Source of the DNA: a bacterium
Lineage (GTDB): Bacteria > Chloroflexota > Anaerolineae > Epilineales > Epilineaceae
DNA length: 64,000 nucleotides
Reading direction: 5' to 3'
Assembly: GCA_003576755.1 (NCBI GenBank)
Contig: QEVT01000002.1
Location: 346-64,345 of the forward strand
Shown here: one piece after another, positions 17,777-31,601 of the stretch
Numbering within the stretch: the first letter of the stretch is position 1
Layout of the letters: each line of letters opens with the position of its first letter
Notes under the pieces: model-generated
What the model was told of the DNA's origin: nothing
Database searches by the model: none
The model's input: the letters and a program-made list of their open reading frames with translations, nothing else
Made by a program: the position numbers and the translations under genes

Positions 17777-18073
17777 ATGCCTTCTGCGGCCCGCATGGGC
17801 GATCTGACCAGCCACGGCACGCCGCTGACTCCCGGTCCGGGCAGCCCGACGGTCTTGATCGGCGGCCTGCCCGCATGGCGGGCGACGGCGGACTTCCACA
17901 CCTGCCCGCTGTTCGACGGCCCCAAGCCGCACGTCGGCGGCGTCGTGGCCAAGGGCAGCCTGACGGTGCTGATCAACGGCCTGCCGGCCGCCCGGCAGGG
18001 CGACATGGTCGTCGAGGCCGGCCCGCCCAACACCATCGCCATGGGCCTGGCGACGGTACAGATCGGGGGCTGA
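17777..18073 (+). CDS. PAAR-repeat spike-tip protein (Afp10-like)
   Basis: 98 aa. The motifs are ARMGDLTSHG...PTVLIGGLPAWR...VLINGLPAARQGD. Confidence 0.85.
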   Translation: MPSAARMGDLTSHGTPLTPGPGSPTVLIGGLPAWRATADFHTCPLFDGPKPHVGGVVAKGSLTVLINGLPAARQGDMVVEAGPPNTIAMGLATVQIGG

Positions 18074-18075
18074 CG

Positions 18076-18495
18076 ATGCGCTTCAACGTCGAGCCGGCGA
18101 AGGCGTTCCTGGGTGTCGGGTGGGCGTTCCCGCCCGGCCTCGAAGCCGATGGCACCATCGCCGAGGCGGCCTACGACGAGGACATCCGTCAGGCCATCCG
18201 GATCATCATGTTCACCAATCGCGGCGAGCGCGTGATGCGGCCGGACTTCGGCGCGGGCCTCAAGGACTTCGTCTTCGAGCCGGTCAACACGTCGACCCTT
18301 GCCGCGGTGCAGACACGGGTGCAGGACGCGCTGACCATCTGGGAACCGCGGATCGACGTCCTGTCGGTGCAGGTCGCGACGGACCCGGCGGAGCGCAACA
18401 CGCTGAACATCCATGTCACCTACCGCGTGCGGGTCACCAACACCGTAGAGAACCTGGTCTATCCGTTCTATCTCGAAGAAGGAAGGCCGGCGTGA
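18076..18495 (+). CDS. Baseplate wedge protein gpW/gp25-like (Afp9)
   Basis: GVGWAFPP...IRQAIRIIMFTNRGERVMRPDFGAGLKDFVFEP...ALTIWEPRI is the GPW_gp25 lysozyme-like fold signature. Confidence 0.9.
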   Translation: MRFNVEPAKAFLGVGWAFPPGLEADGTIAEAAYDEDIRQAIRIIMFTNRGERVMRPDFGAGLKDFVFEPVNTSTLAAVQTRVQDALTIWEPRIDVLSVQVATDPAERNTLNIHVTYRVRVTNTVENLVYPFYLEEGRPA

Positions 18496-21400
18496 CGACG
18501 ACCCGGATCAAGCCGGTTCTGGACGCGCGCGCCGGGCTGGCGCTGCGCGATGCCCTCCTGGCACGCCGCGCCGGCTATCTTCCCGGCTGGCACCCTGAAG
18601 GCACGCGGGTGGATGCGGGGCTCATCCAGGTGGCGGCCAGCTACGCGCAGACCATCCTGCGCCGCCTGGACCGCAGCCTGGACCGCAACGAGCTGGCCTT
18701 TCTGGACCTTCTCGGCATCCAGCTCATCCCCGCGCGGGCCGCCAGGGCACCGATCGTCTTCGAGCTTGCCGCCGGGGCCCAGGACAGCCGCGTGCCGGCG
18801 GGCACGCGCGTCGCCGCGCCGCCTCCCCCCGGCGGCACCGATCAGCTCGTGTTCGAGACCGAGCGCGCCGTCGGCCTGGCCGGAGCCAGGCTGGCCCAGG
18901 TCTTCAGCCTCGTGCCGGGCCGCGACGGCTACATCGACCACACGCCGGCGCTCGCCGAGAAGAAGCCCATGCGCCTGTTCGACCCGCGCGCGCTGCGCAC
19001 GACGCCGCACGCGATCTATCTGGCGCACGACACGCTCTTGGCGCTTTCGGGCAACACGACGGTGGAGGTGCTCTTCGACCTCCTGGAGGGTGCGAGCGAG
19101 TCGATCGACCTGACGTGGGAGTACTGGGATGGCAAGGTCTGGCGCGAGTTCAAGTCGGCCCGCCGCGAGTGCGACGAGGTCGAGGCGCGGCGGCTAGATG
19201 GGACGGAGGGACTGCGGCACGGCGGCAAGGTGCGCCTCGAGGCGGACTTCGCCAAGTCCGAGAAGACCACGGTCAACGGCATCGAGGCCTTCTGGGTGCG
19301 CGGGCGCCTGGCGGACGACCGGACGCTGGCGCCGGGCGCGGTGGCGATCCTGCCCGAGGTGGACCAGATCAAGCTGCAGAATGAGACGGGACACGGGCTG
19401 TCGTTGGGCCATCTCGGCGTGACTTACAACGTCGATGGCGCCGACAACGCTGGCGTCTTCCAGTTGCAGGGCGTTTCCTTGACGGTTTCTATCACCGACG
19501 CCGATGGAGCGCCTCAACCAGGAGTTCCTGTACGTATTGACGAGGGTAACGGACCCAGACCTGGTACGACCGATGCTACCGGCTCGCTCACGTTTACAGT
19601 GGCCATTCCTACGAACCCGGCACAGATGTCCATGGCGGTCACGATCGGCGCAACAGTCCCCAACACCTTGGACGTCCCCATCGACCACGAGTACCCCTTG
19701 ACCATTGACCTCTCCCACAAGCACTTGAGATCGATTCCACACACAACGTTGCTGGATGGTGTCCGTCTCGACAAGGCCTTCGCTGGCCCGGACAAGATCG
19801 ATCTTACCGGCACGTTACAGCCTTTCGGCCCGCAAGTGGTCGCGGGGGGCGCCTTCTACTTCACATGTGAAGAGGTGTTCTCGAAGCCGGGTGCCAGTTT
19901 TAAGGTCGGTGTGGCAATCGCCGCACCGGTTCAACCCGTGGCCAAGTTCCAGGTCTTGCCGGACAAGGTAGAACACGAGCTGGCATGGGAGTATTACGAT
20001 GGCCGGGATTGGAAGTGCGTCCGGTCTTCCAAGGGGGACAGCGGCGCAGGCAACACCGCTGCGGAACGGTTCACGAAGTCGGGCATCATCGAGGGGTTCG
20101 TCGTCCATCCCGACATGGCCAAGGTGAAGGTCAACGGCGACGAGCAGCTGTGGATGCGCGTGCGCGTGGTCAACGGCAGCTTCGGTATCATCCAACAAGT
20201 GCAGGCTGCTCCACCAGTCAAGGCCTTCTTCCCCCAGCCCCCCGCCCTCTCCGACTTCCGCATCGGCTACGTGTGGAAGCCGGCTCCGGAGTTCCCGAAG
20301 CATGTGATCACGCACAACGACTTCCAGTACGTCGACGAGACCGAGACGGCCAAGTGGCCGGGCAAGGCGCTGAAGCCGTTCACGCCGGTGGACGATATCA
20401 CGGCGGCGCTCTACCTCGGGTTCGACCGCGCCCTCCCCGTCGATGCGCTGAGCCTGTATATCGACGCCGAAGAGCAGTCGGCGGCGGGCGGCGGTCCGGC
20501 GCAGGTGTGGGAGTACTGGGACGGCGGCGGCTGGCAGGCACTGGCGGGGGTCGAGGACGAGACGCGCCGGCTGCGGTCGCCGGGCATGCTGGCGCTGATC
20601 GGTCCGGCGGATGGCGAAGCGCTGGCGCGGTTCGGCACACCGCTCCACTGGGTGCGCGCGCGGCTCAAGGAGGACGAGCCGCCCGGCGTGCCGGTGATCA
20701 ACGCCATCCACATGAACGCGGTGTGGGCGTCGCAGAACCAAACCATCGTCAACGAGCCGCTCGGCGCGAGCACCGGCCAGACCAACCAGGGGTTCGCGTT
20801 TCGCCAGGTTCCGGTGTTGGAGGGCCAGGTCATCGAAGTGCGGGAGCTTGCGGGCCGCCGCGCCGACGTCGAATGGCGGATCGTGGCGCTGGACGTCCTC
20901 AACGGCGACGAGCGCGCCGTGCGCGATATCGAAGACATGCTGGCCGCGGACGGTACGCCGCTGGAGTTCGAGTACGGTACGCTGCGGTTCAAGCGCGATC
21001 GCCAGAAGCGGGTCACCGAGGTATGGGTGCGCTGGGAGGAGCCGGCGCGCGGGCACATGCGGTTCTCGGCGTCGGGCGATCGCCACTACACCGTCGACCG
21101 GGCGCGTGGGCGCGCCGCGTTCGGCGACGGCCACAGGGGCAGGGTACCACCGGTCGGCGCGCCCATCCTGGCGCGCCGCTATCGGACCGGCGGCGGGGTC
21201 GCCGGCAACGCCGCCGCCGAAGCCATTAACCAGGTGCTGGGGGCGGTCGGCGCCGTCGAGAAGGTCTTCAACCCGCGGCCGGCGCAGGGCGGGGCAGACG
21301 GCGAGCTGGCCGAGACGGTGCTGCTGCGCGGCCCGCAGACCGTCCGCCATCGCGGCCGTGCCGTGGCGGGTCCGGACTTCGCGACGATGGCGCGCGAGGC

Positions 21401-21938
21401 GGCGTCGAGCGTCGCCGTCGCCCGGGCGATCCCCGGCCGCGATCCGTCCGGGCGCCGGGCGCCGGGCTGGGTGACCGTGGTGATCATCCCGCAGAGCGCC
21501 GAATCCCGGCCATGGCCGTCCTTCGGCCTGCGCGAGGCTGTGCGCCGCTACATCGCCCGTCATGCCGCCGCCGACCTGGTGGCAGCCGACCGCATTTATG
21601 TCACCGGTCCCGTCTACGTCCCGGTCGACATCGATGCCGAGATAGCCGTCCGCGATGCCTCGACGGCCGGCGCCGTCGAACAGGCGGCGCGGGGCGCCAT
21701 CGCGGCGTTCCTGCACCCGCTGAGCGGCGGCGCCGACGGCCGCGGCTGGCAGCCGGGCCGCGCGGTCTACCTCTCGGATGTGGCGGCGGTGCTGGAGCGC
21801 GTGTCCGGGGTGGACTACGCCGTGAGCGTGGCGCTGCTGCGCGACGGCGCCGTGCAGGGACTTTCGGCGCGGGTGCCGGAAGATGGGACCGTCGTGGCCG
21901 GCGACATCCGGCTCAAGCTCCGATCGAGCGAGGCGTGA
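18492..21938 (+). CDS. Large baseplate wedge protein, gpJ/gp6-like (Afp11-like), 1,148 aa
   Basis: GTG at 18492 overlaps the gp25 TGA. The N-terminal pattern is LRDALLARRAGYLPGWHPEG...ELAFLDLLGIQLIPARAARAPIVFEL. The C-terminus is baseplate-J-like (VTVVIIPQS...YVTGPVYVPVDI). Confidence 0.8.
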   Translation: MTTTRIKPVLDARAGLALRDALLARRAGYLPGWHPEGTRVDAGLIQVAASYAQTILRRLDRSLDRNELAFLDLLGIQLIPARAARAPIVFELAAGAQDSRVPAGTRVAAPPPPGGTDQLVFETERAVGLAGARLAQVFSLVPGRDGYIDHTPALAEKKPMRLFDPRALRTTPHAIYLAHDTLLALSGNTTVEVLFDLLEGASESIDLTWEYWDGKVWREFKSARRECDEVEARRLDGTEGLRHGGKVRLEADFAKSEKTTVNGIEAFWVRGRLADDRTLAPGAVAILPEVDQIKLQNETGHGLSLGHLGVTYNVDGADNAGVFQLQGVSLTVSITDADGAPQPGVPVRIDEGNGPRPGTTDATGSLTFTVAIPTNPAQMSMAVTIGATVPNTLDVPIDHEYPLTIDLSHKHLRSIPHTTLLDGVRLDKAFAGPDKIDLTGTLQPFGPQVVAGGAFYFTCEEVFSKPGASFKVGVAIAAPVQPVAKFQVLPDKVEHELAWEYYDGRDWKCVRSSKGDSGAGNTAAERFTKSGIIEGFVVHPDMAKVKVNGDEQLWMRVRVVNGSFGIIQQVQAAPPVKAFFPQPPALSDFRIGYVWKPAPEFPKHVITHNDFQYVDETETAKWPGKALKPFTPVDDITAALYLGFDRALPVDALSLYIDAEEQSAAGGGPAQVWEYWDGGGWQALAGVEDETRRLRSPGMLALIGPADGEALARFGTPLHWVRARLKEDEPPGVPVINAIHMNAVWASQNQTIVNEPLGASTGQTNQGFAFRQVPVLEGQVIEVRELAGRRADVEWRIVALDVLNGDERAVRDIEDMLAADGTPLEFEYGTLRFKRDRQKRVTEVWVRWEEPARGHMRFSASGDRHYTVDRARGRAAFGDGHRGRVPPVGAPILARRYRTGGGVAGNAAAEAINQVLGAVGAVEKVFNPRPAQGGADGELAETVLLRGPQTVRHRGRAVAGPDFATMAREAASSVAVARAIPGRDPSGRRAPGWVTVVIIPQSAESRPWPSFGLREAVRRYIARHAAADLVAADRIYVTGPVYVPVDIDAEIAVRDASTAGAVEQAARGAIAAFLHPLSGGADGRGWQPGRAVYLSDVAAVLERVSGVDYAVSVALLRDGAVQGLSARVPEDGTVVAGDIRLKLRSSEA

Positions 21939-21940
21939 TC

Positions 21941-24166
21941 ATGGCGCTGCCGATGCCGAACCTCGACGATCGCCGCTGGGCCGACCTGGTCGAGGAAGGC
22001 CGCGCCCTCTTGCCGGTCTACGCGCCGGACTGGACCGACCACAACGACTCGGACCCCGGCATCACGTTCATCGAGCTCTTGGCCTGGATCGCCGAGATGG
22101 ACGTGTATCGGGTCAACCTCATCCCGGAGCGCCATCGGCGGAAGTTCCTGGCGCTGGCGGGGATCCGCCTACGGCCGCCCGCACCGGCACGCACGGTGCT
22201 GGGTCTTGGCTTCGACGCGACGAAGGTCGGATCGCAGCCGTTCCGGCTGCCCGCCGGCACGGAGTTCGCCGGCACCGACGTCTTCGGCGTCCGAACGCTG
22301 TTTCGCGCCAAGCATGCCGTGACGGTCGCTCCGGCGAGGCTCGAGTCGATCCAGCGCGAGATCGAGGGGCGGTTCCACGACGTGACGGGGCTTCCCGCCG
22401 CCGGCGAGCCGCTGCGGCCCTTCGGCGATGACCCCCGCCCGGGCGCCGCGCTCTACCTTGGCTTCGACGTCGCGTTCCCGCGGGACGAACCGGTGAGCCT
22501 CTACTTCCTTGGCGCGGATGCGGCTGTGAGCGCGACCGAACGCCGATCTCTGATCCGTGAGTGGTCGGCGAACCACGAGGGGTGTGACGAGCTGTCCGGC
22601 ACGATGGGGTGTGTTCGTGTTCCCGCCGGCAACGCGACGGCGTCGGCGCTGCCGTGCGCCGATACACAGATCGTCCTGCCTGGGGCTATGGCGTCGCGCC
22701 CGGCCACGACGTCGTCGCGGCGCATCGACAAGGCTGCGGCACTGAGGCACCACTCGGTGCGCACGGTATGGGAGATTGCGGTGGCGCCGGGCGTGTGGCG
22801 GACGCTGGATCCCGACCGGGGCGAAGTGCGCGACGGCACGCGGGCGTTCACGCTCGACGGGCGGGTCGTCCTCCGGGCGCCGGCGGCCATGATCGGTCAG
22901 GCGATGGGGTCGGTGCGGGCCAATCGCTACTACGTACGCTGCCGGCTGGCCGCGGGGCAGTACGACGCGGCGCCGGCGATCCACCACGTCATCGTGAACG
23001 GTGTGCGCGTGGAACAGGCGGTCGAGAGCGGGGGGGAAGGCATCGCGGCCGGCGGGGCCATCGGCACCGGCGAGCCGTTCCAGCGCATCGCGCTGCCCGA
23101 GAAGCCGGTGATCGCCTCCAGCGTGCGGCTGTTCACGGAGCCTGGGCCCGATGGGACGTGGGCGCTGTGGGAGCGGCGCGATGACCTCGACGCGTCGTCG
23201 CCGACGGACCGACACTTCGTGCTGGATGCTACCGCTGGCGAGATCACGGTCGGCGATGGGGCCCATGGGTCGACCGTGGGGGAAGGCAGCGAGATTCAGG
23301 TGGACTACCGTGTGACCCGCGCCGAAGCCGGCAACGTGCCCGCCGGGACCATCCGGGCGCTGGCCGGCAAGGACAGGTTCCGGCATTGGGAGGCGCTTGT
23401 CGCGGCGGTCGAGGACCGGGTCGCGGAAATGGAGCGATCGACGCCCGGCCTGTCGGTCGGTGCCGCGGACGCCTTGTCATGGATCGACGCGCTCGTGGTG
23501 TCGCAGCCGTTTCCGGCCGCCGAAGGCGCGGCTGCCGAGACGCTGGCCCATGCTGAGGGCCGCGCAATCGAACGGATGGAGGAACGAACCCGGGCGGTGA
23601 CGCTGGAGGACTTCGAGCAGGTCGCGCTTCACACGCCCGGCGTCCGGCTGGCACGGGCGCATGCGTGCGCCAACGTACATCCGCGCCTGCCTTGCTACCG
23701 TGCGCCGGGCATCGTCACGGTGGTCGTGATCCCCCATCTGCCCCAGGCGCGGCCGATGCCGTCGGCCGAGCTGCGGCGCACGGTCGCGTCCTACCTGGCC
23801 CGTCGGCGTCTGATCGGCTCGCGCATCGAGGTGGTCGGCCCGACGTATCACGTCGTCACGGTGCGCGCCAAGGTGCAGTTGCTTTCTGGGGTCGGCCCTG
23901 GCGGCGCACGTGAGCGGATCGCGGCAAGTCTGGAGCGGTTCTTCCACCCGCTGAAAGGCGGCACGGACCAAGAGGGCTGGCCTCTCGGTCGGGATGTCTA
24001 CCGTTCGGAGGTGTTGCAGGTGATCGACGAGACGGCGGGCGTGGACTTCGTCGTGGACCTCGAGCTGGTGGACGAGGATGGGCTGGCGTCGTGTGCCAAC
24101 CTCTGCATCGGGCCGTTCGGCCTGGTGGCGTCCGGCCGGCACGCCATCGAAGTGAGGCAGCCATGA
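21941..24166 (+). CDS. Second gpJ-like 'putative baseplate assembly protein' (Afp12/gp7-position), 741 aa
   Basis: ATG lies 2 nt after the upstream stop. PNLDDRRWADLVEEGRALLPVYAPDWTDHNDSDPGITFIELLAWIAEMDVYRVN is the conserved N-terminus of this baseplate family. The C-terminus is IVTVVVIPHLP...IEVVGPTYHVVTV. Confidence 0.8.
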   Translation: MALPMPNLDDRRWADLVEEGRALLPVYAPDWTDHNDSDPGITFIELLAWIAEMDVYRVNLIPERHRRKFLALAGIRLRPPAPARTVLGLGFDATKVGSQPFRLPAGTEFAGTDVFGVRTLFRAKHAVTVAPARLESIQREIEGRFHDVTGLPAAGEPLRPFGDDPRPGAALYLGFDVAFPRDEPVSLYFLGADAAVSATERRSLIREWSANHEGCDELSGTMGCVRVPAGNATASALPCADTQIVLPGAMASRPATTSSRRIDKAAALRHHSVRTVWEIAVAPGVWRTLDPDRGEVRDGTRAFTLDGRVVLRAPAAMIGQAMGSVRANRYYVRCRLAAGQYDAAPAIHHVIVNGVRVEQAVESGGEGIAAGGAIGTGEPFQRIALPEKPVIASSVRLFTEPGPDGTWALWERRDDLDASSPTDRHFVLDATAGEITVGDGAHGSTVGEGSEIQVDYRVTRAEAGNVPAGTIRALAGKDRFRHWEALVAAVEDRVAEMERSTPGLSVGAADALSWIDALVVSQPFPAAEGAAAETLAHAEGRAIERMEERTRAVTLEDFEQVALHTPGVRLARAHACANVHPRLPCYRAPGIVTVVVIPHLPQARPMPSAELRRTVASYLARRRLIGSRIEVVGPTYHVVTVRAKVQLLSGVGPGGARERIAASLERFFHPLKGGTDQEGWPLGRDVYRSEVLQVIDETAGVDFVVDLELVDEDGLASCANLCIGPFGLVASGRHAIEVRQP

Positions 24167-25128
24167 ACGCGTTCGATCGCCGTGCGCTCGAACGCGTGCG
24201 GCACCTCCCGGGCGAACGCCTGCGCGGGCGCGACTTCCGGGCACAGGCGGCCATCGACGATCAGCTGCGTTGGTGGCACAACCGCGCGCTGCATCAGGCC
24301 TATGGCGTGGCGACGGGCATGGAGGTGCGGGATTCGGCGACGATGAAGCGCCCGATGGTAGGTGCGGCGGCTGTCGAGATCAGCCCCGGCGTCGCTTATG
24401 ACGCCTATGGGCGCGAGATCATCAGCCCGTTCCCCGTTCGCCGCGCCGTGCCGAAGATCGGCGACTGGACCCTGGTCGTGTCGTACCGAATGCCCGTCCG
24501 GGTGGAACCGCCGCCGCCGCCGTCGCCGGCACCTCAGTTGCCGGCGCCCTGTCCTTCGGCGTGCGACATCGGCGGCGTTACGACGGCGGTATTCACCTGG
24601 GTGCCGCCTCCAGCGGCGCCCAGTCGAGATGCCGTATCGCTCGTGACGTTCCGAGCGAATGGGGAAGTCAAGGTCCACACGACGTTTACCCATGCGATGG
24701 CGCGACCGCTGGTCGCCAGCGGCGAAACGCGGCTGGGGTTTACGCCCTGGATCGTGTGGAAGGTCGCCGAAGTGGGATCGCTGGGATTGGAGACCGAAGT
24801 CGATACCTCCGCGGCGTTGTTCGCGCCCGAGCATGGGGTGCCCTGTTACTTCGCGTGGTTGAACGAGGTGATCGAGGTCGGACAGGGCAGTGACAAGCTT
24901 CCGCAGCCGCGCGGGTTTTTCGGTCATGTCGCTCCCGGTGCCGATCATCGGCGATTCACGTTTCGCGTGCTCATGCGGAACGTCTCCCTCACTCACGGCG
25001 AGGCTGCGAATCGATTTGGCGACACCGGGGCTTGGTTGGCGTTCGGCGAACATCTTCAGGTGTGCTGGCTCGGCGTTCAGTGTCTGACGTGCCTGAAGGA
25101 CCTGCAAGCAGAAGACTCGGGAGAGTGA
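24163..25128 (+). CDS. Fibre/baseplate-periphery candidate, paralogue 1 of a four-member family (321 aa)
   Basis: ATGA overlap with the upstream gene. It shares the N-terminal module (GERLRGRDFRAQAAIDDQLRWWHNRALHQAYGVATGMEV...GVAYDAYGREIIS) with 25132, 28524 and 29433. Confidence 0.6.
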   Translation: MNAFDRRALERVRHLPGERLRGRDFRAQAAIDDQLRWWHNRALHQAYGVATGMEVRDSATMKRPMVGAAAVEISPGVAYDAYGREIISPFPVRRAVPKIGDWTLVVSYRMPVRVEPPPPPSPAPQLPAPCPSACDIGGVTTAVFTWVPPPAAPSRDAVSLVTFRANGEVKVHTTFTHAMARPLVASGETRLGFTPWIVWKVAEVGSLGLETEVDTSAALFAPEHGVPCYFAWLNEVIEVGQGSDKLPQPRGFFGHVAPGADHRRFTFRVLMRNVSLTHGEAANRFGDTGAWLAFGEHLQVCWLGVQCLTCLKDLQAEDSGE

Positions 25129-25131
25129 CGC

Positions 25132-26217
25132 ATGTTGACCACGGGCTCCAGCGACTTCCAGGCTCACGAGCGACCGGCGTTCTTCAACGGTCAACGCCTG
25201 CTCGCGTCCGATCTTCAAGCCGTCGAGATCGCCAACCGCGAGATGCGCTGGCTGCACAACCGCTCACTGCACCAGGTGGGCATCGGCAGCGGGCTGGCGA
25301 TCGTCGGCAACAAGGGCGATCGCGTGGTCACCGTCATGGCGGGCTACGCGATCGACGATCTTGGGCGCGAGATCGTGCTAACGGAAGCGGTCCAGCTTGC
25401 GCTCCCGCCGGTCGCCGGCGCCGGAAAGGGTACGCCCGCCATCTACGATCTCACCATCAACTACGCCGATGATGACGACCTGAACGAGGCGGAAACGCGG
25501 GCGACGATCTGCGCGCAGTCCGAGCGTGGCGCCGTGCGATTGCGCGAGGCTCCGGCACTCTGCTGGGTATTGGTCAAGACCGAGCACGAAATCTCCCCCC
25601 TCGTCAAGTCCGGTCGCCGTATCCTCTTGGGCCGCGTGCGCATCCTGAACTGCGAGCTCTTCAGCCTTGAGATCGACCGCCGCCGAAACGCCAGGCCGTC
25701 GAAGCAGCCGTACATCGCGTGCGGCGTCGCCAATCCGGTGGCGTGGACGCCTTGGACGACAAAGAACGACAAAGGAAGCGACATCATTATCGGCTTATGC
25801 GCCGAGATCGACACCTCCACGGCGCGTTTTGGAGCCGTGCCGTGCTACACCGTTCGGATCGACGGCAAGCGGCCGTTGGATTGGCGGGTGAACGCATACG
25901 TGCACTCTGCCTTTGACGGGCCGGTAACCGTTTTCGATCCCCGCTCCGATGGCTTTACGGTTGGAGTGTTGCTGATGGAGATCCCGCCGCCCAGACCTGC
26001 TCAGCCTATAGAAGTCCCGCCCGGCGGTGGGCTCAACGTGGTTCGCGAAGTGGCCATGCCGGCAGCGTCCGCGGCGACACCGGCAGCTACTGGAGCTGCC
26101 GTCGAAGGGGTCTCTATGCCGAGCGCCTCGGTCGCTGCACCGAGCGCTTCGATCACTGATGCACTCCGGCCCGTTTTTTCGCCCTGGTCCGTCGTATGGA
26201 TGGGCGTCGAGGGATGA
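25132..26217 (+). CDS. Fibre/baseplate-periphery candidate, paralogue 2 (361 aa)
   Basis: FFNGQRLLASDLQAVEIANREMRWLHNRSLHQVGIGSGLAIV...GYAIDDLGREIVL has the same N-terminal module. The start lies 3 nt after the upstream stop. Confidence 0.6.
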   Translation: MLTTGSSDFQAHERPAFFNGQRLLASDLQAVEIANREMRWLHNRSLHQVGIGSGLAIVGNKGDRVVTVMAGYAIDDLGREIVLTEAVQLALPPVAGAGKGTPAIYDLTINYADDDDLNEAETRATICAQSERGAVRLREAPALCWVLVKTEHEISPLVKSGRRILLGRVRILNCELFSLEIDRRRNARPSKQPYIACGVANPVAWTPWTTKNDKGSDIIIGLCAEIDTSTARFGAVPCYTVRIDGKRPLDWRVNAYVHSAFDGPVTVFDPRSDGFTVGVLLMEIPPPRPAQPIEVPPGGGLNVVREVAMPAASAATPAATGAAVEGVSMPSASVAAPSASITDALRPVFSPWSVVWMGVEG

Positions 26218-28475
26218 CGATGCACGGCGCGCCACGCTTCCGGTACCTCAATCGCGAGAACCGTTGGGCCGGGTTCACGTTGAGGGGCCTCACCCTGGAC
26301 GAGGACGGCGCCCTGCGCCTGGCGCATCTGCCGGGGTTGGAGGGCGACGCGCCGGCGGGCCTCGCCGCGCTGCCCCGTCCGACGGAGCCCGGCGGCATCG
26401 CGGTAGGCCCGGACGGTGCGGCGTACTTCGCCGATGTCGTGCGGCATCAGGTGTGGCGCGTCGACCCGTGCGACGGGAGCCGGGCGCCGCTGGCCTGCAT
26501 CGGTGGTCCGGGCGATGTGCCGGGGACGGTGTACGAGCCGCGGGGTCTGGCCTACCACCCGTCCCGCCGCGCGCTGGTTGTGGTCGACAGCCTGAACCAC
26601 CGCTTGCAGCTCTTCGAGCTCGCGACGCTCCAGCTCGTCGACGTGTGGGGCGGTTGGGGCGATGGCGACGGGCAGTTCCGGAAGCCGTGGTCTGTAGCAG
26701 TCGATCGCGAGGGCAGCGTCTACGTGACGGAGCACACGACGGCGCGGGTGCAGAAGTTCGATGCGAAAGGACGCGTCGATGTCGGGTTCTGGGAAAAGGT
26801 TCGAAGCGCGATCAAAGAGAAGGAGCTTGCGTGGCAGCGGCCGGTCGCCGTCGCGACCAGCGGCGGCCGGCGCAAGGGCAGGGTCTACGTCCTCGACGGC
26901 GCCGCGGGCTGGGTCCATGTCTTCTTTGCGACGGGTGTCCATGAACGCAGTCTCAAGGTCGAAACAGACCAGGGGTCGGGTGTCGCACATACTTCGATCG
27001 AACCGATCGAGCCCATGGGTCTCGCCGCTGACGCCGAAGGCATCTACGTCGGCGACAATGCCGGCCGGCGCATCCTGCGCTTCCTGGCCGACGGCACGTT
27101 CGTCGGGGCAGCCCTAGGATACGACGGGCCGGTGGCGGCGTTGGGGATCGACGGGCAGGGTGGCCTGATCGTCCAGCCCGGCGCGGGCATGGCGCCCGTG
27201 ACGCTGACCGTGCGCGGCGGCCATGCCCGCTACGGATATGCGTGGGGGGGACCGTTCCGCAACGACAGCTACCGCGCCGAGCAGTGGCACTGGATTACGT
27301 CGGAGCTGGAGGCGAAGCCCGGCGCGCATGTACAGCTATTCGTCCTCTGCACGCGGCCCGAAGAACCGGCACCGGTGGGCGATCCCCCGTGGCGTGGCCG
27401 GGTTCAAGACTTCGACAATGCGCTGAAGGCCGGGCTGTCGCATGGCCCCGGGCTGTCCGCAACCGGACAAGCGGTGCCTTCGCCCTGGTTGGGACTACCG
27501 ATCGATGTGACGGAATGCCTGGTGCCCGGCGCGCCGGGAGGCGAGTTGGTGTGGGTGGGCGTGGCCATGACCGGTGACGGTCTGGAGAGCGCGGCGCTCA
27601 AGCAGGTCCGGCTGGAGTTCGATCATCTGACGTGGCTGCCCCACTTGCCCGCGGTGTATCAGGGCGACGATGCGTCGCGCCGCTTCCTGGCGCGCTTCCT
27701 GACGATGTTCGAGAGCCTGTTTAGCGAAGCGGAGCGGAGCATCGATCGGTTGCCGCAGTACTTCGACGCCGCGGCGGCGCCGAAGTCCGGGCTGGCGTGG
27801 TTGGGCAGTTGGCTCGGGCTGGAGGTCCACGAGGACTGGTCCGAGCCGACCAAACGGCGTGCGATCGCGGAAGCGATCGAGATGCACGGCCTGCGGGGAA
27901 CGGTCGAGGGGCTCCGGCGCGCCGTTCGGCTTTACACGGGCGCAGACGTGCGGATCCAGGAACCCTACCTGACGACCCAGTGGTGGTCGCTGGCGCCGCC
28001 GGCCGGCGACGCGGCGTCGTCCCTGGAGTCCGAAGGCTCGGTGCTCGGCCTCACCACGATGCTGGCACCGGCGGCGCCTCAGGGCGCAATCGTCGGGTCC
28101 ACGGCGACGCTGGACGGGTCGCACCTCATCTCAGGCGATCAGGTCGGCGAGCCGCTGTTTACCGACGTCGCCCATCAGTTCAGCGTACTGCTTTATCGCG
28201 GGGCAGGCTACAGCGATGCCGTCCGCGATGCAGTGCGGGCCGTGATCGATCGCGAGCAGCCGGCGCACACCACCTACCAGCTTTGTGTCATCGAGCCGCG
28301 CATGCGGATCGGTTGGCAGGCCCGGGTCGGCATCGACACCGTGGTGGCGGGCCCGCCGGGCGTGTCGCCCTTGGGCGATGCCGATGCCGCCGCGCCCGAA
28401 ATCACCCTCGGGGGCGATCCCCCGGGCGCAATCGGCGACCGGAGCCGTCTGGGCGTGACGACGCGCCTGCGCTAG
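26214..28475 (+). CDS. NHL-repeat beta-propeller fused to a P2 gpI-like phage tail protein domain (TIGR02242-type)
   Basis: NHL blades are VVDSLNHRLQLFE, GQFRKPWSVAVDREGSVYVTEHTTARVQKFD and IYVGDNAGRRILRF. The C-terminal LPAVYQGDDASRRFLARFLTMFESLF...LAWLGSWLGLEV...HGLRGTVEGLRRAVRLYTG is the gpI-family signature. An ATGA overlap at 26214 is the likely start. Confidence 0.75.
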   Translation: MTMHGAPRFRYLNRENRWAGFTLRGLTLDEDGALRLAHLPGLEGDAPAGLAALPRPTEPGGIAVGPDGAAYFADVVRHQVWRVDPCDGSRAPLACIGGPGDVPGTVYEPRGLAYHPSRRALVVVDSLNHRLQLFELATLQLVDVWGGWGDGDGQFRKPWSVAVDREGSVYVTEHTTARVQKFDAKGRVDVGFWEKVRSAIKEKELAWQRPVAVATSGGRRKGRVYVLDGAAGWVHVFFATGVHERSLKVETDQGSGVAHTSIEPIEPMGLAADAEGIYVGDNAGRRILRFLADGTFVGAALGYDGPVAALGIDGQGGLIVQPGAGMAPVTLTVRGGHARYGYAWGGPFRNDSYRAEQWHWITSELEAKPGAHVQLFVLCTRPEEPAPVGDPPWRGRVQDFDNALKAGLSHGPGLSATGQAVPSPWLGLPIDVTECLVPGAPGGELVWVGVAMTGDGLESAALKQVRLEFDHLTWLPHLPAVYQGDDASRRFLARFLTMFESLFSEAERSIDRLPQYFDAAAAPKSGLAWLGSWLGLEVHEDWSEPTKRRAIAEAIEMHGLRGTVEGLRRAVRLYTGADVRIQEPYLTTQWWSLAPPAGDAASSLESEGSVLGLTTMLAPAAPQGAIVGSTATLDGSHLISGDQVGEPLFTDVAHQFSVLLYRGAGYSDAVRDAVRAVIDREQPAHTTYQLCVIEPRMRIGWQARVGIDTVVAGPPGVSPLGDADAAAPEITLGGDPPGAIGDRSRLGVTTRLR

Positions 28476-28523
28476 AGAAAGAACATCCGTGCGCATCCAT
28501 CCAGCGTATCTTCAGGAGGAACG

Positions 28524-29411
28524 ATGAACCGCTCGCAACGAGCCAGATCGAGGGGTACCGACATCACGTCGCCGCTCCGCAACAATTACTTCCACGGCAA
28601 GATGATGGATGCGTACCACTTCCAGCTGGAGACGCACTATCACAACCACTTGCGCTCGATGCTGAACAGACTGGTGATCGGCCGGGGCGTGGTCTGCGGG
28701 CTCAACGTCACGCATCGGCAGGACTGCGACGGCTGCGAAGAGCCCGAGACTCCCGTGATCGACATTGCCCATGGCGTGGCCATCGATGCCTGGGGGCGGC
28801 CCATCGTGGTGCCGTCGGACGTCAAGTGCCTGCCCATTCCGAAGGACAGGATCATCGAGGCTCTGGAGCTGACCGAGGAGTATGGGGGCGCGGGCACCGC
28901 CAGCCGGCACGTCGGCCATGGCCCTCCGGGCAAGGACGACGACGACGATGAGAAGGGGCCCAACGGTTGGGTGCAGGTGCTCATCGGCTACCACGAGTGC
29001 CAGGTCGACCCGGTGCCGGTGTTGGCGGGGGACTGCCACGGCGGGCAGTCATGCAATGCCGGCACCATCCGCGAGTGGTACAAGTTCGACTTCCGTGCCG
29101 GCCGATCGCAGCGCATCGATCTGCACTGCAACATCCCGGATGTCGTCACACGCGGCCGGGTGAACTACGACAAGATCGTCGACTGGGTCACGATCCCGGA
29201 CGAGAACGAGCTTACGGGCTGCCGCGAACGTCCCGAAGCGTCGTGGCTGCCTTTGGCCGACGTGCACTTCGATCTGGATGAATCCGGCGACGCGCCGCGC
29301 TTCGTCATCGATCGTGTCGACATCTACCGCCGGCGGGTGGCGTACTCCAACCGGCTGCTCTTCGAGATGCTCTTGGACCTCATCCAGGCCCGGCGTGGCC
29401 CCAACCGATGA
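28524..29411 (+). CDS. Fibre/baseplate-periphery candidate, paralogue 3 (295 aa)
   Basis: RBS AGGAGG. YFHGKMMDAYHFQLETHYHNHLRSMLNRLVIGRGVVCGLNV...GVAIDAWGRPIVV has the same N-terminal module as the other three. Confidence 0.6.
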   Translation: MNRSQRARSRGTDITSPLRNNYFHGKMMDAYHFQLETHYHNHLRSMLNRLVIGRGVVCGLNVTHRQDCDGCEEPETPVIDIAHGVAIDAWGRPIVVPSDVKCLPIPKDRIIEALELTEEYGGAGTASRHVGHGPPGKDDDDDEKGPNGWVQVLIGYHECQVDPVPVLAGDCHGGQSCNAGTIREWYKFDFRAGRSQRIDLHCNIPDVVTRGRVNYDKIVDWVTIPDENELTGCRERPEASWLPLADVHFDLDESGDAPRFVIDRVDIYRRRVAYSNRLLFEMLLDLIQARRGPNR

Positions 29412-29432
29412 CCACTCAGCACGAGGTGAGAC

Positions 29433-30695
29433 ATGCAACGCACCACTGATTGCGGCTGCGGCTGCGGCCAAGGCCACGCCGGCGTGATGGAGCGGCCGCG
29501 CTACTTCCCGCGCCAGCTCATCACGCCCGACGACATGAACCTTGAGCAGGCGTACTTCCGCGACAAGATGCGGCGGCACAACAAGTACCTCCATGGCTGG
29601 GGCGTCGTGTGCGGGGCGCAGGTTTGTGCGGCCACAATGAAGGGAAAGGACGCCTCCGGCAAAGAGGTCGACGTCCCCAAGCCCTGGACCGTCGTGGTCC
29701 AGCCGGGCTACGTCCTCGGCCCCGGCGGCGACGAGATCTACATCGATTGCCCGCGCGAGGTCGACGTTCGCACGTCAGGGCTGGCCGTGAAGTCCGGCGA
29801 GCCCGCGGGTGCGTGGGAGGATCCGTGGTGCACGCCGGTCCGCGTCCCGAACAACGAAGCCGGCACGGTCTACATCGGGGTGCGCTACAAGGAGTTCAAG
29901 ACGCGCAAGGTCCCGGTGTACCCCGCCGGGTGCGGCTGCGACGACACGCAATGCGAGGAGTCGCGCTGGTGCGACGGCTACGAGATCTGCATCCTGGACT
30001 CGTGCCCGGACTCCCACAAAGGCCCGCCGCCGCTGAGCATGGTCGCCAATGCCAAGACGGCTGAGACGCTCGTTGGCAACCCATCTCCCCCGTGCCCTGG
30101 CTGCAGCGACGACTGCGTGGTCCTGGCCAAGGTCTCGTTCAACGCCGAGGGGACATTCGGCGATAACGGAATCGACCACTGCGCCTGCCGGCGGAACGTG
30201 CTGTCGTTCGGGCATGTGTGGTGGGGGTGTGGGGAGGCAGTGACGGATGGTACGAACGGTTCGGGCGGCGTTGAGCCTCCCACATCTGGGGAGTGTGAGA
30301 TCGTCGTGCATCGGATTGTTGCGCAGTACAAATATACCAGCGGGGCGCCGCAAATGGTACGAGAGATTACGCGACATGGCGGCACAGCCGATAGCGCGAT
30401 CAAGTGGGGCCCAGTGCCACACGACATCGCGAAGTACATCGAAGTGACTCTTGAAGGGGATGGATTCCTTTGCGGTAACATTGCAAAAGAGACTCAAGTA
30501 TCTGTTGGCCAAGGACTGAGGGTCGAAAGTTCTTGGGTCGAAAGAGTAGAGTTGACGAACAGTCGACAGCGCCTTATCTTCCAACTCGTTCGCGACGAGG
30601 CTCCGGTGTTCACTCCGGGCTTTCGATCACTCACTATCATCAACGCCGTGGGTAAGTCATGGCGACTCGATAATATCATCGAGGTGACAGAATAG
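29433..30695 (+). CDS. Fibre/baseplate-periphery candidate, paralogue 4 (420 aa), Cys-rich with a low-GC C-terminal domain
   Basis: YFPRQLITPDDMNLEQAYFRDKMRRHNKYLHGWGVVCGAQV...GYVLGPGGDEIYI. There are more than 20 Cys, including CGCGCG at the N-terminus and GCGCDDTQCEESRWCDGYEIC. The last ~150 codons are visibly AT-richer. Confidence 0.6.
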   Translation: MQRTTDCGCGCGQGHAGVMERPRYFPRQLITPDDMNLEQAYFRDKMRRHNKYLHGWGVVCGAQVCAATMKGKDASGKEVDVPKPWTVVVQPGYVLGPGGDEIYIDCPREVDVRTSGLAVKSGEPAGAWEDPWCTPVRVPNNEAGTVYIGVRYKEFKTRKVPVYPAGCGCDDTQCEESRWCDGYEICILDSCPDSHKGPPPLSMVANAKTAETLVGNPSPPCPGCSDDCVVLAKVSFNAEGTFGDNGIDHCACRRNVLSFGHVWWGCGEAVTDGTNGSGGVEPPTSGECEIVVHRIVAQYKYTSGAPQMVREITRHGGTADSAIKWGPVPHDIAKYIEVTLEGDGFLCGNIAKETQVSVGQGLRVESSWVERVELTNSRQRLIFQLVRDEAPVFTPGFRSLTIINAVGKSWRLDNIIEVTE

Positions 30696-30719: not shown

Positions 30720-31601
30720 GTGGTCAACGCATTCGCCGTGATGCTCATGCAGCCAGACCTCCCGGATGCCAAGACGATCCAGGACAACCTCGACTGGTTT
30801 GTCAGTGCAGTCGTGACGGTGCTTGCCTTCTTGCTGCCCTATCTCATTCGCCATTACGGCCTCATCGCCTCGAAGGGCCGGGCCGATCGGCTGGGCCGGA
30901 TCGTCGCCCTCGCCGACCAGGCCGTGGCGATGGCCGAGGAGCGGGCGCGGAAGGATGACCTGCCGCTGGGACCGGACCGTACGGAGCGCCTGAGCAAGTT
31001 GGCGACGGCGGTCGAGTTCGTGAAGAAGGAGCTGCAGAAGTCGGGCATCGAGGTCGATCCGGAAGAGGCCAAGAACTACGTCATCGCCGCCTACGGGTCG
31101 AAAGTCGGCAGCGTCCTGCCAGTCGGCGCCATCGCCGCAGCGACGGCCGCCGTGGCCGACAGGCTCCAGAGCCTGGATCGGCGCGCGGACGTCGCGCTGC
31201 CGCCCGGCGTGGATCGCGCGACCCATCTGATCGGCCTCGCCGCCAACGCACTGCAGGTGGAGCTGGCCAAGTCGGGCATCAGCATCAGCGCCGATGACGC
31301 CGCGAGCTGGCTCAGGGCGGAGGTCTTCCGACGGCTGGAGGGCGACGATGCCGCCCTTCCCGCGAGCGACCAGCTGGAGCGGCTGGCGACCGAAGCGTAT
31401 GCGTTCGTCGACCGGCTCAGGGCGGGCGGAAAGCTCGCGCTACAGGCGTCCGGACCCGCGGAAGAGACCGACTTGCGCATCGCGGCCGCCTGGCTGCTCA
31501 GCGAAGTTAGCGAACGCGGGCTGCCGGTGTCGCTGGACCAGGTGGAGGGCGCGATCCTCGCGGCGCGGGCCGCGCGGGAGGGAGGCTCACTGAGGCGATA
31601 A
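30720..31601 (+). CDS. Membrane protein with one N-terminal TM helix and three LL-H-holin-like repeats (putative holin/lysis or release factor)
   Basis: The TM helix is LDWFVSAVVTVLAFLLPYLI. Three repeats follow with the pattern '...A..V...L.KSGI.V..DE.....I.A.V', for example ATAVEFVKKELQKSGIEVDPEEAKNYVIAAY, ANALQVELAKSGISISADDAASWLRAEVF and AAWLLSEVSERGLPVSLDQVEGAILAARA. The family call is from memory of the Holin_LLH pattern and is not verified. Confidence 0.5.
   Translation: MVNAFAVMLMQPDLPDAKTIQDNLDWFVSAVVTVLAFLLPYLIRHYGLIASKGRADRLGRIVALADQAVAMAEERARKDDLPLGPDRTERLSKLATAVEFVKKELQKSGIEVDPEEAKNYVIAAYGSKVGSVLPVGAIAAATAAVADRLQSLDRRADVALPPGVDRATHLIGLAANALQVELAKSGISISADDAASWLRAEVFRRLEGDDAALPASDQLERLATEAYAFVDRLRAGGKLALQASGPAEETDLRIAAAWLLSEVSERGLPVSLDQVEGAILAARAAREGGSLRR

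What the first reader, a model, noticed from the sequence alone, without database searches (positions are those of the whole stretch)
24163..30695. Four paralogues sharing a ~150-aa N-terminal module occupy the tail-fibre region: an unassigned fibre/receptor-binding family
The ORFs at 24163, 25132, 28524 and 29433 all begin with the same module. It has the pattern x-(F/Y)-x-G-x-x-L/M-x-x-x-D-x-x-x-E/Q-x-x-Y/x...h-N-R/K-x-L-H-G-x-G-V-V-x-G-h-x-V. About 20-40 residues later comes G-(Y/V)-A-(I/Y/L)-D-x-x-G-R/D-(E/P)-I, and then a Cys-containing segment. After that the four diverge completely in their C-terminal halves. They flank the gpI-like gene, where P2 encodes fibre H and chaperone G. A shared baseplate-docking N-terminus with four different distal domains would allow one particle, or a mixed population, to carry up to four binding specificities. 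I cannot place the N-terminal module in a named family from memory.
Basis: partly seen in the sequence, partly recalled or inferred. Interest (0 to 1): 0.65.

Follow-up and report, generated by a model that had tools for sequence, protein, structure and literature searches.

The report
Four TssK-like baseplate fibre paralogues
Four neighbouring genes in a phage-tail-like injection system of a Chloroflexi bacterium share a real N-terminal "shoulder" domain that docks short fibres onto the baseplate, but this domain family and the four-per-wedge layout were published in 2026, so this is a new example of a known kind.

Summary
A profile built without the window's own sequences finds exactly four copies of a ~110-aa N-terminal module in the 64-kb window (E 6e-39 to 8e-27), at the four stated ORF starts. 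They flank a Tail_P2_I (Cis12/TssG-like) gene inside a complete contractile-injection-system operon of Chloroflexi bacterium CFX6.

The module is no longer unassigned. It matches the N-terminus of NCBIfam CIS13_fam and the crown protein Cis19 of the Anabaena tCIS (PDB 7b5h). A model of protein A resembles T6SS TssK and phage receptor-binding-protein shoulders. It fits the eBAP3 baseplate-anchor class of Nachmias et al. 2026, who also describe Tail_P2_I loci carrying up to four such fibres.

First, the C-terminal halves do not all diverge: A/B are homologous end to end, and C/D share ~215-235 residues. Second, the set is not a local expansion. All 33 untruncated related loci, from many phyla, carry the same order gp25–Cis11a–Cis11b–A–B–Cis12–C–D, and each paralogue has its own conserved orthologues. 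Only D ends in a variable Ig-like domain. This points to fixed structural roles more than to four interchangeable specificities.

Verdict: real, ordinary for its lineage, new member of a known kind.

The parts
24163..25128 (+). Paralogue A (position-1 type, 321 aa): N-terminal shoulder module plus a conserved beta-rich body. Full-length paralogue of B.
   Evidence: Gene call in GCA_021463285.1. Full-length orthologues at 30-49% identity in many phyla. AlphaFold model has pLDDT 78. Foldseek finds TssK, Cis19 and phage RBPs.
24166..24498 (+). N-terminal module of A
   Evidence: HMM hit E 1e-34. Leave-out HMM E 2.9e-35.
25132..26217 (+). Paralogue B (position-2 type, 361 aa). Shares its whole length with the A family, including the IDTS-AGF-PCY and W-GV motifs.
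   Evidence: hhalign pos1 vs pos2: 306 columns, E 2.3e-40. Orthologues P0137, P0148, P0256.
25150..25494 (+). N-terminal module of B
   Evidence: HMM hit E 7e-39. Leave-out HMM E 5.7e-39.
26220..28475 (+). Cis12 / gpI / TssG-like baseplate wedge protein (751 aa) with an N-terminal NHL-repeat half. Presumed docking partner of the four shoulder proteins.
   Evidence: Pfam NHL 1e-15, Tail_P2_I 3e-15, weak T6SS_TssG 0.041. NCBIfam CIS12_fam 4e-40, TIGR02242 3e-30. Lies between the two pairs in 39 related loci.
28524..29411 (+). Paralogue C (position-3 type, 295 aa): shoulder module plus a Cys-containing body shared with D.
   Evidence: NCBIfam CIS13_fam N-terminus 4.9e-21. Orthologues P0223, P0195, P0206 are full length. 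hhalign pos3 vs pos4 E 5e-21.
28524..28850 (+). N-terminal module of C
   Evidence: HMM hit E 1e-26. Leave-out HMM E 8.3e-27.
29433..30695 (+). Paralogue D (position-4 type, 420 aa): shoulder module, a Cys-rich body (21 Cys), and a variable C-terminal Ig-like region.
   Evidence: CIS13_fam N-terminus 6.9e-16. Orthologue P0152. C-terminal blocks have identity ~0.2. Qn_am_d_aIII in 6 of 31 orthologues and PKD in 1. Conserved Cys columns.
29445..29780 (+). N-terminal module of D
   Evidence: HMM hit E 6e-33. Leave-out HMM E 1.1e-34.
18492..21938 (+). Cis11a, first Baseplate_J-like wedge protein (1148 aa)
   Evidence: Pfam Baseplate_J 2e-15. Gene call. Start read.
21941..24166 (+). Cis11b, second Baseplate_J-like wedge protein (741 aa). 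Its stop codon overlaps the start of A.
   Evidence: Pfam Baseplate_J 3.5e-12. Gene call. Two Cis11 paralogues are conserved upstream in the related loci.
17875..18495 (+). gp25-like baseplate wedge protein
   Evidence: Pfam GPW_gp25 1e-26.

Best explanation
The four genes encode TssK/Cis19-type shoulder-domain proteins of a contractile injection system. They belong to the class recently named eBAP3 tail fibres.

Shown: each starts with a ~110-aa module, a long helix followed by a small beta-sandwich.

Inferred, by analogy with solved relatives: the module trimerises and clamps a loop of the gpI/TssG-like wedge protein Cis12, and possibly an extension of Cis11. This fixes the proteins to the periphery of the baseplate.

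Shown: the four are not a recent, locus-specific expansion. They are two ancient paralogue pairs. A/B lie upstream of cis12 and are homologous end to end. C/D lie downstream and share ~215-235 residues. They form a fixed gene block, gp25–Cis11a–Cis11b–A–B–Cis12–C–D, conserved across many phyla.

Inferred: each paralogue has its own fixed seat and structural role on every wedge, giving a T6SS-like baseplate periphery with four shoulder assemblies per wedge. The variable Ig-like C-terminus of D is the most likely target-contacting element. None of the four has a transmembrane segment, so they are not membrane anchors of the Anabaena Cis13 type.
For: - Module is real and present exactly four times.
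- The operon is a complete CIS: eCIS_core cargo, AAA ATPase, Pvc16_N cap, sheath, tube, LysM tube initiator, VgrG-like spike, gp25, two Baseplate_J genes and Tail_P2_I.
- A profile of the four modules hits Anabaena Cis19 (7b5h, residues 13-82) at E 3e-4, motif for motif.
- Foldseek on the model of A finds TssK chains 6giy_D and 6n38_A (prob 0.99 and 0.97) and 7b5h Cis19 chains. In the viral library it finds phage RBP and tail-fibre shoulders (E 4.5e-6 to 1e-3).
- The cryo-EM paper on AlgoCIS reports three central helices of the Alg19 shoulder holding the C-terminal loop of Alg12, as in TssG-TssK.
- Nachmias et al. 2026 describe eBAP3 in Tail_P2_I loci, TssK-like, with up to four fibres. Their example CP015530 has genes 18, 19, 21, 22 labelled eBAP3, next to two Baseplate_J genes.
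- Synteny: 31 related loci have exactly four modules arranged 2 + Cis12 + 2. Two more have one copy split by a frameshift. The nine loci with fewer copies all end at a contig edge.
- Pair structure.
- Conservation along the length.
- Ig-like tip of D.
- No hydrophobic 19-mer above 1.17 on the Kyte-Doolittle scale.
- Single-chain pos1+pos2 fusions in metagenomes suggest 1:1 co-assembly of A and B.
Against: - No structure or proteomics exists for this lineage. Trimerisation, the docking partner and the stoichiometry are all inferred from relatives.
- Sequence links to solved proteins are weak: Cis19 E 3e-4; TssK hhalign E 0.004 with probability 8%.
- Foldseek E-values against the PDB are only ~1e-2, with TM-scores ~0.28.
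- Only protein A was modelled well. The single-sequence model of C failed (pLDDT 32).
- The locus survey was seeded with an A-type motif. It shows that A-type genes always come with B, C and D. It does not show how common the four-gene block is among all CIS loci. Nachmias et al. count only 19 of 2585 loci with four fibre genes.
- Conserved bodies do not exclude receptor binding.
Confidence: 0.7

Rival explanations
1. This is the first reader's model and the published 'advanced targeting mode'. The four are four independent homotrimeric tail fibres whose distal domains recognise four different receptors. One particle, or a mixed population, would then have a broadened target range.
For: - Shared anchor with different bodies between the two pairs.
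- Phage receptor-binding proteins are the best structural matches in the viral library.
- Nachmias et al. interpret multi-fibre eBAP3 loci this way.
- The D-type C-terminus is variable and Ig-like.
- The position-1 protein carries a ~570-aa extension in the Methylobacterium and Methylopila loci.
Against: - The bodies of A, B and C are conserved across phyla living in very different habitats, with block identity mostly 0.25-0.68.
- The set and its order are invariant in 33 of 33 untruncated loci. Receptor-binding domains under diversifying selection are usually swapped and variable in number.
- A/B and C/D are whole-length or near whole-length paralogues, not one anchor joined to unrelated tips.
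Confidence: 0.2
2. The four act as TssK-like or Cis13-like connectors. They would tie the baseplate to a membrane or membrane complex inside the producer cell, in a T6SS-like or thylakoid-CIS-like anchored mode, rather than binding a target.
For: - TssK is the best PDB fold match.
- In Anabaena, the protein encoded between cis11 and cis12 (Cis13) anchors the particle to thylakoid membranes.
- Haloarchaeal T6SS-like CIS also have two cis11 genes.
Against: - None of the four proteins has a transmembrane segment.
- No TssL/TssM-like membrane-complex genes were seen among the window genes scanned.
- The locus has eCIS hallmarks: eCIS_core (DUF4157) cargo and a Pvc16_N cap, plus a holin-like gene. 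These fit release by lysis.
Confidence: 0.08
3. The shared motif is a chance or compositional resemblance in a GC-rich genome, and there is no real module.
For: - One pairwise comparison (B-C) is not significant on its own (E 0.15).
- phmmer scaled to a large database supports only the A-B pair.
Against: - The leave-out family HMM gives E 6e-39 to 8e-27 for exactly these four ORFs and nothing else in six frames.
- The independent NCBIfam model hits all four.
- 10,489 representative clusters match the profile, nearly always at the N-terminus.
Confidence: 0.01

Closest known systems
eBAP3 (eCIS Baseplate Anchor Protein 3) tail fibres, Nachmias et al., Nat Commun 2026 (PMC12923769)
   Same: - An N-terminal shoulder-like anchor on fibre genes next to Baseplate_J and Tail_P2_I genes.
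- The locus has Tail_P2_I rather than an Afp12-type gene.
- The fold is TssK-like.
- Up to four fibres per baseplate are reported. Their example CP015530 has the same layout: two Baseplate_J genes, 2 eBAP3 genes, one intervening gene, 2 eBAP3 genes. It also shows the same two domain-sharing pairs.
   Different: - The authors' HMM is not available, so membership rests on architecture and fold.
- They describe eBAP3 as ~200 aa. Only ~110 aa is securely shared between the two pairs here.
- They count four-fibre loci as rare (19 of 2585) and read them as a targeting mode. Here the four-gene block is invariant within its lineage and mostly conserved in its distal parts.
Cis19 crown protein of the Anabaena thylakoid CIS (All3314, PDB 7b5h) and Alg19 tail fibre of AlgoCIS
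   Same: - N-terminal shoulder that trimerises at the baseplate. The gene lies just downstream of cis12, like C and D.
- Sequence-profile match to All3314 residues 13-82 (E 3e-4).
- Foldseek match to 7b5h chains.
- The Alg19 shoulder helices clamp the Alg12 C-terminal loop.
   Different: - Cis19 is 1476 aa with large flexible distal domains and is a single gene.
- Here there are four short proteins (295-420 aa) in two pairs.
- The per-family profiles of C and D match All3314 only marginally (E 0.25-0.46).
TssK of type VI secretion systems (PDB 5M30, 6GIY, 6N38)
   Same: - Shoulder fold (Foldseek prob 0.97-0.99).
- Several trimers are attached per wedge to loops of the gpI/gp7-like protein TssG, next to two copies of the gp6/J-like TssF. 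This wedge has two Cis11 paralogues plus Cis12.
- The N-terminal motif register is similar: W-x-x-G-x-x-L ... H-x-W-G-V-V.
   Different: - No Pfam TssK (T6SS_VasE) hit.
- hhalign against EAEC TssK gives only E 0.004 with probability 8%.
- The TssK neck and head that bind the membrane complex are absent.
- T6SS has one TssK gene, not four.
NCBIfam NF053767 'CIS13 family contractile injection system protein'
   Same: Model positions ~5-90 match the N-terminal module of all four: C 4.9e-21, D 6.9e-16, B 8.5e-5, A 1.1e-3.
   Different: - Scores are 18-75 bits against a curated cut-off of 370 bits.
- The remaining ~300 positions of the model are unmatched.
- Orthologues from Streptosporangium, Chlorogloeopsis and Methylobacterium also stay below the cut-off.
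Phage P2 tail fibre H with gpI/gpJ, and siphophage receptor-binding proteins with shoulder domains
   Same: - Gene position next to gpI and gpJ homologues.
- Foldseek hits to Peduovirinae and other tail fibres, and to lactococcal and Leuconostoc phage RBPs.
   Different: - No sequence-level hit in PHROGs.
- No long fibre shaft and no chaperone gene.

Membership tests
eBAP3 tail-fibre anchor class (Nachmias et al. 2026) | N-terminal shoulder-like fold resembling the tCIS crown and TssK | tested here: met
   The model of A (pLDDT 78) matches TssK at prob 0.97-0.99 and 7b5h Cis19 chains at prob 0.33-0.60, with E ~1e-2. It matches phage RBP shoulders at E 4.5e-6. Only A was modelled. B, C and D are linked to A by sequence profile.
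eBAP3 tail-fibre anchor class (Nachmias et al. 2026) | Encoded in an eCIS locus beside Baseplate_J and a Tail_P2_I gene, with no Afp12-type gene | tested here: met
   Two Baseplate_J genes lie upstream and a Tail_P2_I gene lies between the pairs. eCIS_core and Pvc16_N are present. The layout is the same as the paper's eBAP3 example CP015530 genes 18-24.
eBAP3 tail-fibre anchor class (Nachmias et al. 2026) | Match to the authors' eBAP3 HMM, or presence in their gene list | not testable with these tools
   The HMM is not in the held supplements. None of my loci's accessions occur in their lists, and CP015530 is not in the annotated plasmid collection queried.
eBAP5 (DUF6519) | Pfam DUF6519 match with its ~200-aa insertion | tested here: not met
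   No Pfam family matched A, B or C at E<=1. D gave only a spurious Flu_NS1 hit.
eBAP4 / Cis19 (tCIS crown) | Homology to the first ~200 aa of All3314 | tested here: inconclusive
   The mixed four-sequence profile hits All3314 residues 13-82 at E 3e-4. Single-family profiles give E 0.25-0.46 or nothing.
NCBIfam NF053767 CIS13_fam (equivalog) | Whole-protein score at or above the curated cut-off of 370 bits | tested here: not met
   The best score is 75 bits, covering the N-terminal ~85 model positions only. Orthologues in other phyla reach at most 81 bits.
T6SS TssK (Pfam T6SS_VasE) | Sequence match to the TssK family, including neck and head domains | tested here: not met
   No Pfam hit. hhalign against EAEC TssK, whose sequence was verified against 5m30, gives E 0.004 and probability 8% over 42 columns. 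Only the shoulder fold is shared.
Afp13/Pvc13 tail fibres (eBAP1/2) | Short helical N-terminal anchor with an adenovirus-like beta-spiral shaft | tested here: not met
   No Pfam, PHROG or PDB sequence hit to Afp13/Pvc13-type fibres. The model of A is a helix plus beta-sandwich, not a beta-spiral.

The most novel reading that the evidence does not exclude
The four paralogues are obligate, co-assembling parts of one peripheral baseplate structure, not alternative fibres. A with B, and C with D, would form paired or mixed shoulder assemblies on either side of Cis12. Each wedge would then carry a duplicated version of the T6SS (TssK3)2–TssG–TssF2 arrangement, built from Cis11a, Cis11b, Cis12 and four TssK-like proteins. 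This widespread, uncharacterised CIS lineage would then be a structural intermediate between T6SS and eCIS baseplates. Natural pos1+pos2 fusion proteins, and single chains with three shoulder modules, hint that modules of different paralogues can sit in one assembly.
Probability: 0.3. Interest if true: 0.55.

Novelty: new member of a known kind. Interest (0 to 1): 0.33.

Why it matters
Tail fibres decide what a contractile injection system hits, and they are the part that gets re-engineered for protein delivery. This locus belongs to a large, experimentally untouched CIS lineage found in Chloroflexota, Acidobacteriota, Cyanobacteria, Actinomycetota, Alphaproteobacteria and others. Its baseplate carries four conserved TssK-like proteins per wedge.

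If three of the four are structural and only the D-type tip varies, engineering and target prediction should focus on that tip. The lineage would also be a good cryo-EM target for understanding how T6SS-type and eCIS-type baseplates are related.

As a discovery, the domain class and the up-to-four-fibres layout are already in the literature. The added value is the invariant synteny, the two-pair structure and the conservation pattern.

Tried and rejected
- Pfam and PHROGs scans of the four proteins found nothing useful.
- The single-sequence AlphaFold run on C gave pLDDT 32 and was unusable.
- The first homologue search, with the 110-aa module alignment, returned only short proteins and fragments of 70-210 aa. 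It could not show full-length architectures.
- PDB sequence searches with the family profiles of A, B, C and D gave nothing, or only marginal hits to All3314. phmmer of C alone gave noise.
- I tried to fetch CP015530, the published four-eBAP3 example, for a direct comparison. It is not in the annotated plasmid collection I queried.
- I looked for my loci in the paper's gene lists and found no overlap.
- A sequence-level link to TssK by hhalign or hmmsearch is in the right register but not significant.
- A membrane-anchor reading was considered because Anabaena Cis13 has a transmembrane helix. It was rejected for lack of any hydrophobic segment.
- The idea that NCBIfam CIS13_fam is the orthologous family was rejected. 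Every protein tested scores far below its cut-off.


Full report
**Context**

The window carries a complete contractile-injection-system (CIS) operon on the + strand. In order, it encodes:
- an eCIS_core (DUF4157) protein of 1569 aa
- an AAA+ ATPase
- a second eCIS_core protein with PG_binding and CHAP domains
- a Pvc16_N cap
- sheath and tube
- a CIS_tube+LysM initiator
- VgrG-related and Phage_base_V spike proteins
- gp25
- two Baseplate_J proteins
- then the region in question

Exact-sequence look-ups place the proteins in "Chloroflexi bacterium CFX6" (RIL12717-RIL12720). They also recur in many metagenome assemblies.

**The observation**

The four ORFs at 24163, 25132, 28524 and 29433 do begin with one homologous module.
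- Pairwise BLASTP over the first ~90-100 residues gives E 1e-11 (A-B), 2e-5 (A-C), 4e-5 (A-D), 8e-5 (B-D), 1e-3 (C-D) and 0.15 (B-C).
- An HMM was built from 378 family members, excluding the window's own proteins and their near-identical cluster mates. It hits exactly these four of 547 six-frame ORFs in the window (E 5.7e-39, 2.9e-35, 1.1e-34, 8.3e-27). Nothing else scores at E<=10.
- The independent curated model NCBIfam NF053767 also hits all four N-termini.
- The gene between the pairs is gpI-like: Tail_P2_I 3e-15, TIGR02242 3e-30, CIS12_fam 4e-40. Its N-terminal half carries NHL repeats.

Two details need correcting.

First, the securely shared module is ~110 aa. A low-confidence profile alignment continues through the Cys-containing segment to roughly residue 150-170.

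Second, the C-terminal halves do not all diverge.
- Profile-profile comparison of the positional families shows A and B homologous over 306 columns (E 2e-40).
- C and D are homologous over 215 columns (E 5e-21).
- Only the comparisons between the two pairs are confined to the N-terminal 80-100 columns (E 1e-7 to 7e-14).

**How big the family is**

An exhaustive profile search of 1.84 billion representative proteins found 10,489 clusters at E<=1e-3 and 4,380 at E<=1e-10. The module is almost always at the N-terminus, typically of proteins of 280-450 aa. None carries a Pfam domain. Each of the four paralogues has its own full-length orthologues. For example, A has ~30-37% identical relatives at ~95% coverage in KSB1, Bryobacteraceae, Nonomuraea and Nitrospira.

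**Synteny survey**

A genome-collection scan seeded with the A family returned 42 loci. They come from Chloroflexota, Acidobacteriota, Cyanobacteria (Chlorogloeopsis fritschii PCC 6912), Actinomycetota (Streptosporangium), Alphaproteobacteria (Methylobacterium, Methylopila), Verrucomicrobiota and several candidate phyla.

Scanning their six-frame ORFs with the module HMM gave the following:
- 31 loci have exactly four copies, arranged as two adjacent genes, a ~3-kb gap, then two adjacent genes.
- 2 loci have five hits because one copy is split by a frameshift.
- 9 loci have fewer, and all nine end at a contig edge.

The gap always encodes a Cis12 homologue that includes the NHL-like half. Two Cis11 paralogues and gp25 lie upstream. 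The block gp25–Cis11a–Cis11b–A–B–Cis12–C–D is therefore a fixed feature of a CIS lineage.

One caveat applies. The survey was seeded on an A-type motif. It shows that A always travels with B, C and D. It does not show what share of all CIS loci have the block.

**Conservation along the proteins**

Across 32 orthologues per position (31 related loci plus the window), mean pairwise identity in 25-column blocks behaves as follows:
- It is highest in the module (0.5-0.8).
- It stays substantial through most of the bodies (mostly 0.25-0.68).
- It falls to ~0.2 over the last ~120 columns of the D type. Short dips occur elsewhere, for example at the extreme C-terminus of the A and C types.

That D-type tail is Ig-like in some orthologues: Qn_am_d_aIII in 6 of 31 and PKD in 1. 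None of the four proteins has a hydrophobic segment compatible with a transmembrane helix. D has 21 cysteines, about 11 of them conserved, including GCGC..C and CPxCP motifs.

**What the module is**

A profile of the four modules hits the N-terminus (residues 13-82) of All3314 in PDB 7b5h at E 3e-4, with the motifs in register. All3314 is Cis19, the trimeric "crown" protein of the Anabaena thylakoid-anchored CIS.

An AlphaFold2 model of A, built with 115 homologues, has pLDDT 78. It shows a long helix (residues 22-44) followed by beta structure. Foldseek results were:
- Against the PDB, TssK of type VI secretion ranks first (6giy_D prob 0.99, 6n38_A prob 0.97, E ~1e-2), followed by 7b5h Cis19 chains.
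- Against predicted viral structures, the top matches are phage receptor-binding and tail-fibre proteins (E 4.5e-6 to 1e-3, prob ~1).

The direct sequence link to EAEC TssK is in the right register but not significant: hhalign E 0.004, probability 8%.

**What is already published**

Nachmias et al. (Nat Commun 2026, PMC12923769) define five N-terminal "eCIS baseplate anchor" domains. Their eBAP3 has these properties:
- It is ~200 aa and occurs in 1420 genes.
- It has a shoulder-like fold like the tCIS crown.
- It occurs in loci that use Tail_P2_I rather than Afp12.
- It is TssK-like, while the Tail_P2_I protein is TssG-like.

One of their four-fibre examples is CP015530. Genes 18, 19, 21 and 22 are all eBAP3, and genes 23 and 24 are Baseplate_J. 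Genes 18/19 share one set of domains and 21/22 another. This is exactly the two-pair layout seen here.

The 2026 AlgoCIS firing paper (PMC13314943) reports the docking mode from its cryo-EM structure. The Alg19 shoulder resembles phage RBPs and TssK. Its three central helices hold the C-terminal loop of Alg12, as in TssG-TssK.

**Membership**

- eBAP3: fold and context criteria are met. The authors' HMM could not be applied.
- eBAP5 (DUF6519): not met.
- NCBIfam CIS13_fam: not met. [quoted passage not shown]
- TssK: no sequence membership, shoulder fold only.

**Mechanism, with shown and inferred steps**

Shown:
- four homologous N-terminal modules
- the two-pair structure
- invariant synteny around cis12
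- conserved bodies
- a variable Ig-like tail on D
- no transmembrane helix
- a TssK/RBP-like fold for A

Inferred from solved relatives:
- The modules trimerise.
- They clamp loops of Cis12 (or Cis11).
- This places four shoulder assemblies on every wedge.

Inferred from the conservation pattern:
- A, B and C have fixed structural roles at the baseplate periphery.
- D's tail is the best candidate for target contact.

The alternative is four independent receptor specificities. It remains possible but fits less well with an invariant, phylum-spanning gene set.

Metagenomic proteins that fuse a position-1 and a position-2 unit (P0136, P0172, P0214) hint at co-assembly of A with B. So do single chains with three shoulder modules (P0139, P0276). 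That idea is speculative and is offered as the most novel reading not excluded.

**Verdict**

The feature is real, well supported and correctly located. Its interpretation as a baseplate-docking fibre family is broadly right. It is an instance of a class described in 2026, so novelty is limited to a new member. The added observations are the invariant synteny, the two ancient pairs and the conserved bodies.

Noticed in passing
window 32712-34589 (- strand): A 625-aa collagen triple-helix repeat protein (Pfam Collagen 5e-36) with a non-collagen C-terminal domain, convergent on the CIS operon. A similar gene lies next to the closest related locus, L006, but not next to the others. It has no shoulder module. 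It could be an unrelated surface protein or an extra fibre.
   Followed up: partly
window 30720-31601 and 31669-32580 (+ strand): Directly after paralogue D come a Holin_LLH-like 293-aa gene and a CAP12/Pycsar-type TIR-domain gene (1e-22). The holin-like gene recurs only in L006. The TIR gene is found only in this organism's own contigs. They may be a lysis or release module and a cargo or defence gene.
   Followed up: partly
window 1537-6246 and 8465-9958 (+ strand): Two eCIS_core (DUF4157) proteins at the head of the operon. One is 1569 aa. The other also carries PG_binding_1 and CHAP domains. Both are likely cargo toxins or cell-wall-active effectors.
   Followed up: no
window 29433-30695 (protein D) and its orthologues: D has 21 cysteines. 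About 11 are conserved in at least 80% of 32 orthologues, including GCGC..C, CPxCP and C-x-C motifs. This suggests metal-binding clusters or a disulfide network in the fibre body.
   Followed up: partly
metagenomic proteins P0136, P0172, P0214, P0138, P0139, P0276: Some predicted proteins fuse a position-1 and a position-2 unit in one chain. One holds two D-type units. Two carry three shoulder modules in a single chain of 659 or 708 aa. These could be single-chain pseudo-trimers, or gene-calling or assembly artefacts.
   Followed up: partly
L031:9938-12622 and L032:9965-12625: In the Methylobacterium frigidaeris and Methylopila loci, the position-1 (A-type) protein is ~890 aa, about 570 aa longer than elsewhere. 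The A-type body can therefore acquire a long distal extension.
   Followed up: no
window 18492-21938 and 21941-24166; 26220-27500: The wedge has two different Baseplate_J (Cis11) paralogues, and Cis12 carries an N-terminal NHL-repeat half. Both features are conserved in the related loci. Two cis11 genes are also reported for the haloarchaeal T6SS-like CIS.
   Followed up: partly
L019:10812-11980 and L047:11036-11970: In Chlorogloeopsis fritschii PCC 6912 and in one Acidobacteriota MAG, the position-2 gene is split into two ORFs. This is a frameshift or a sequencing error. It produced five module hits instead of four.
   Followed up: no
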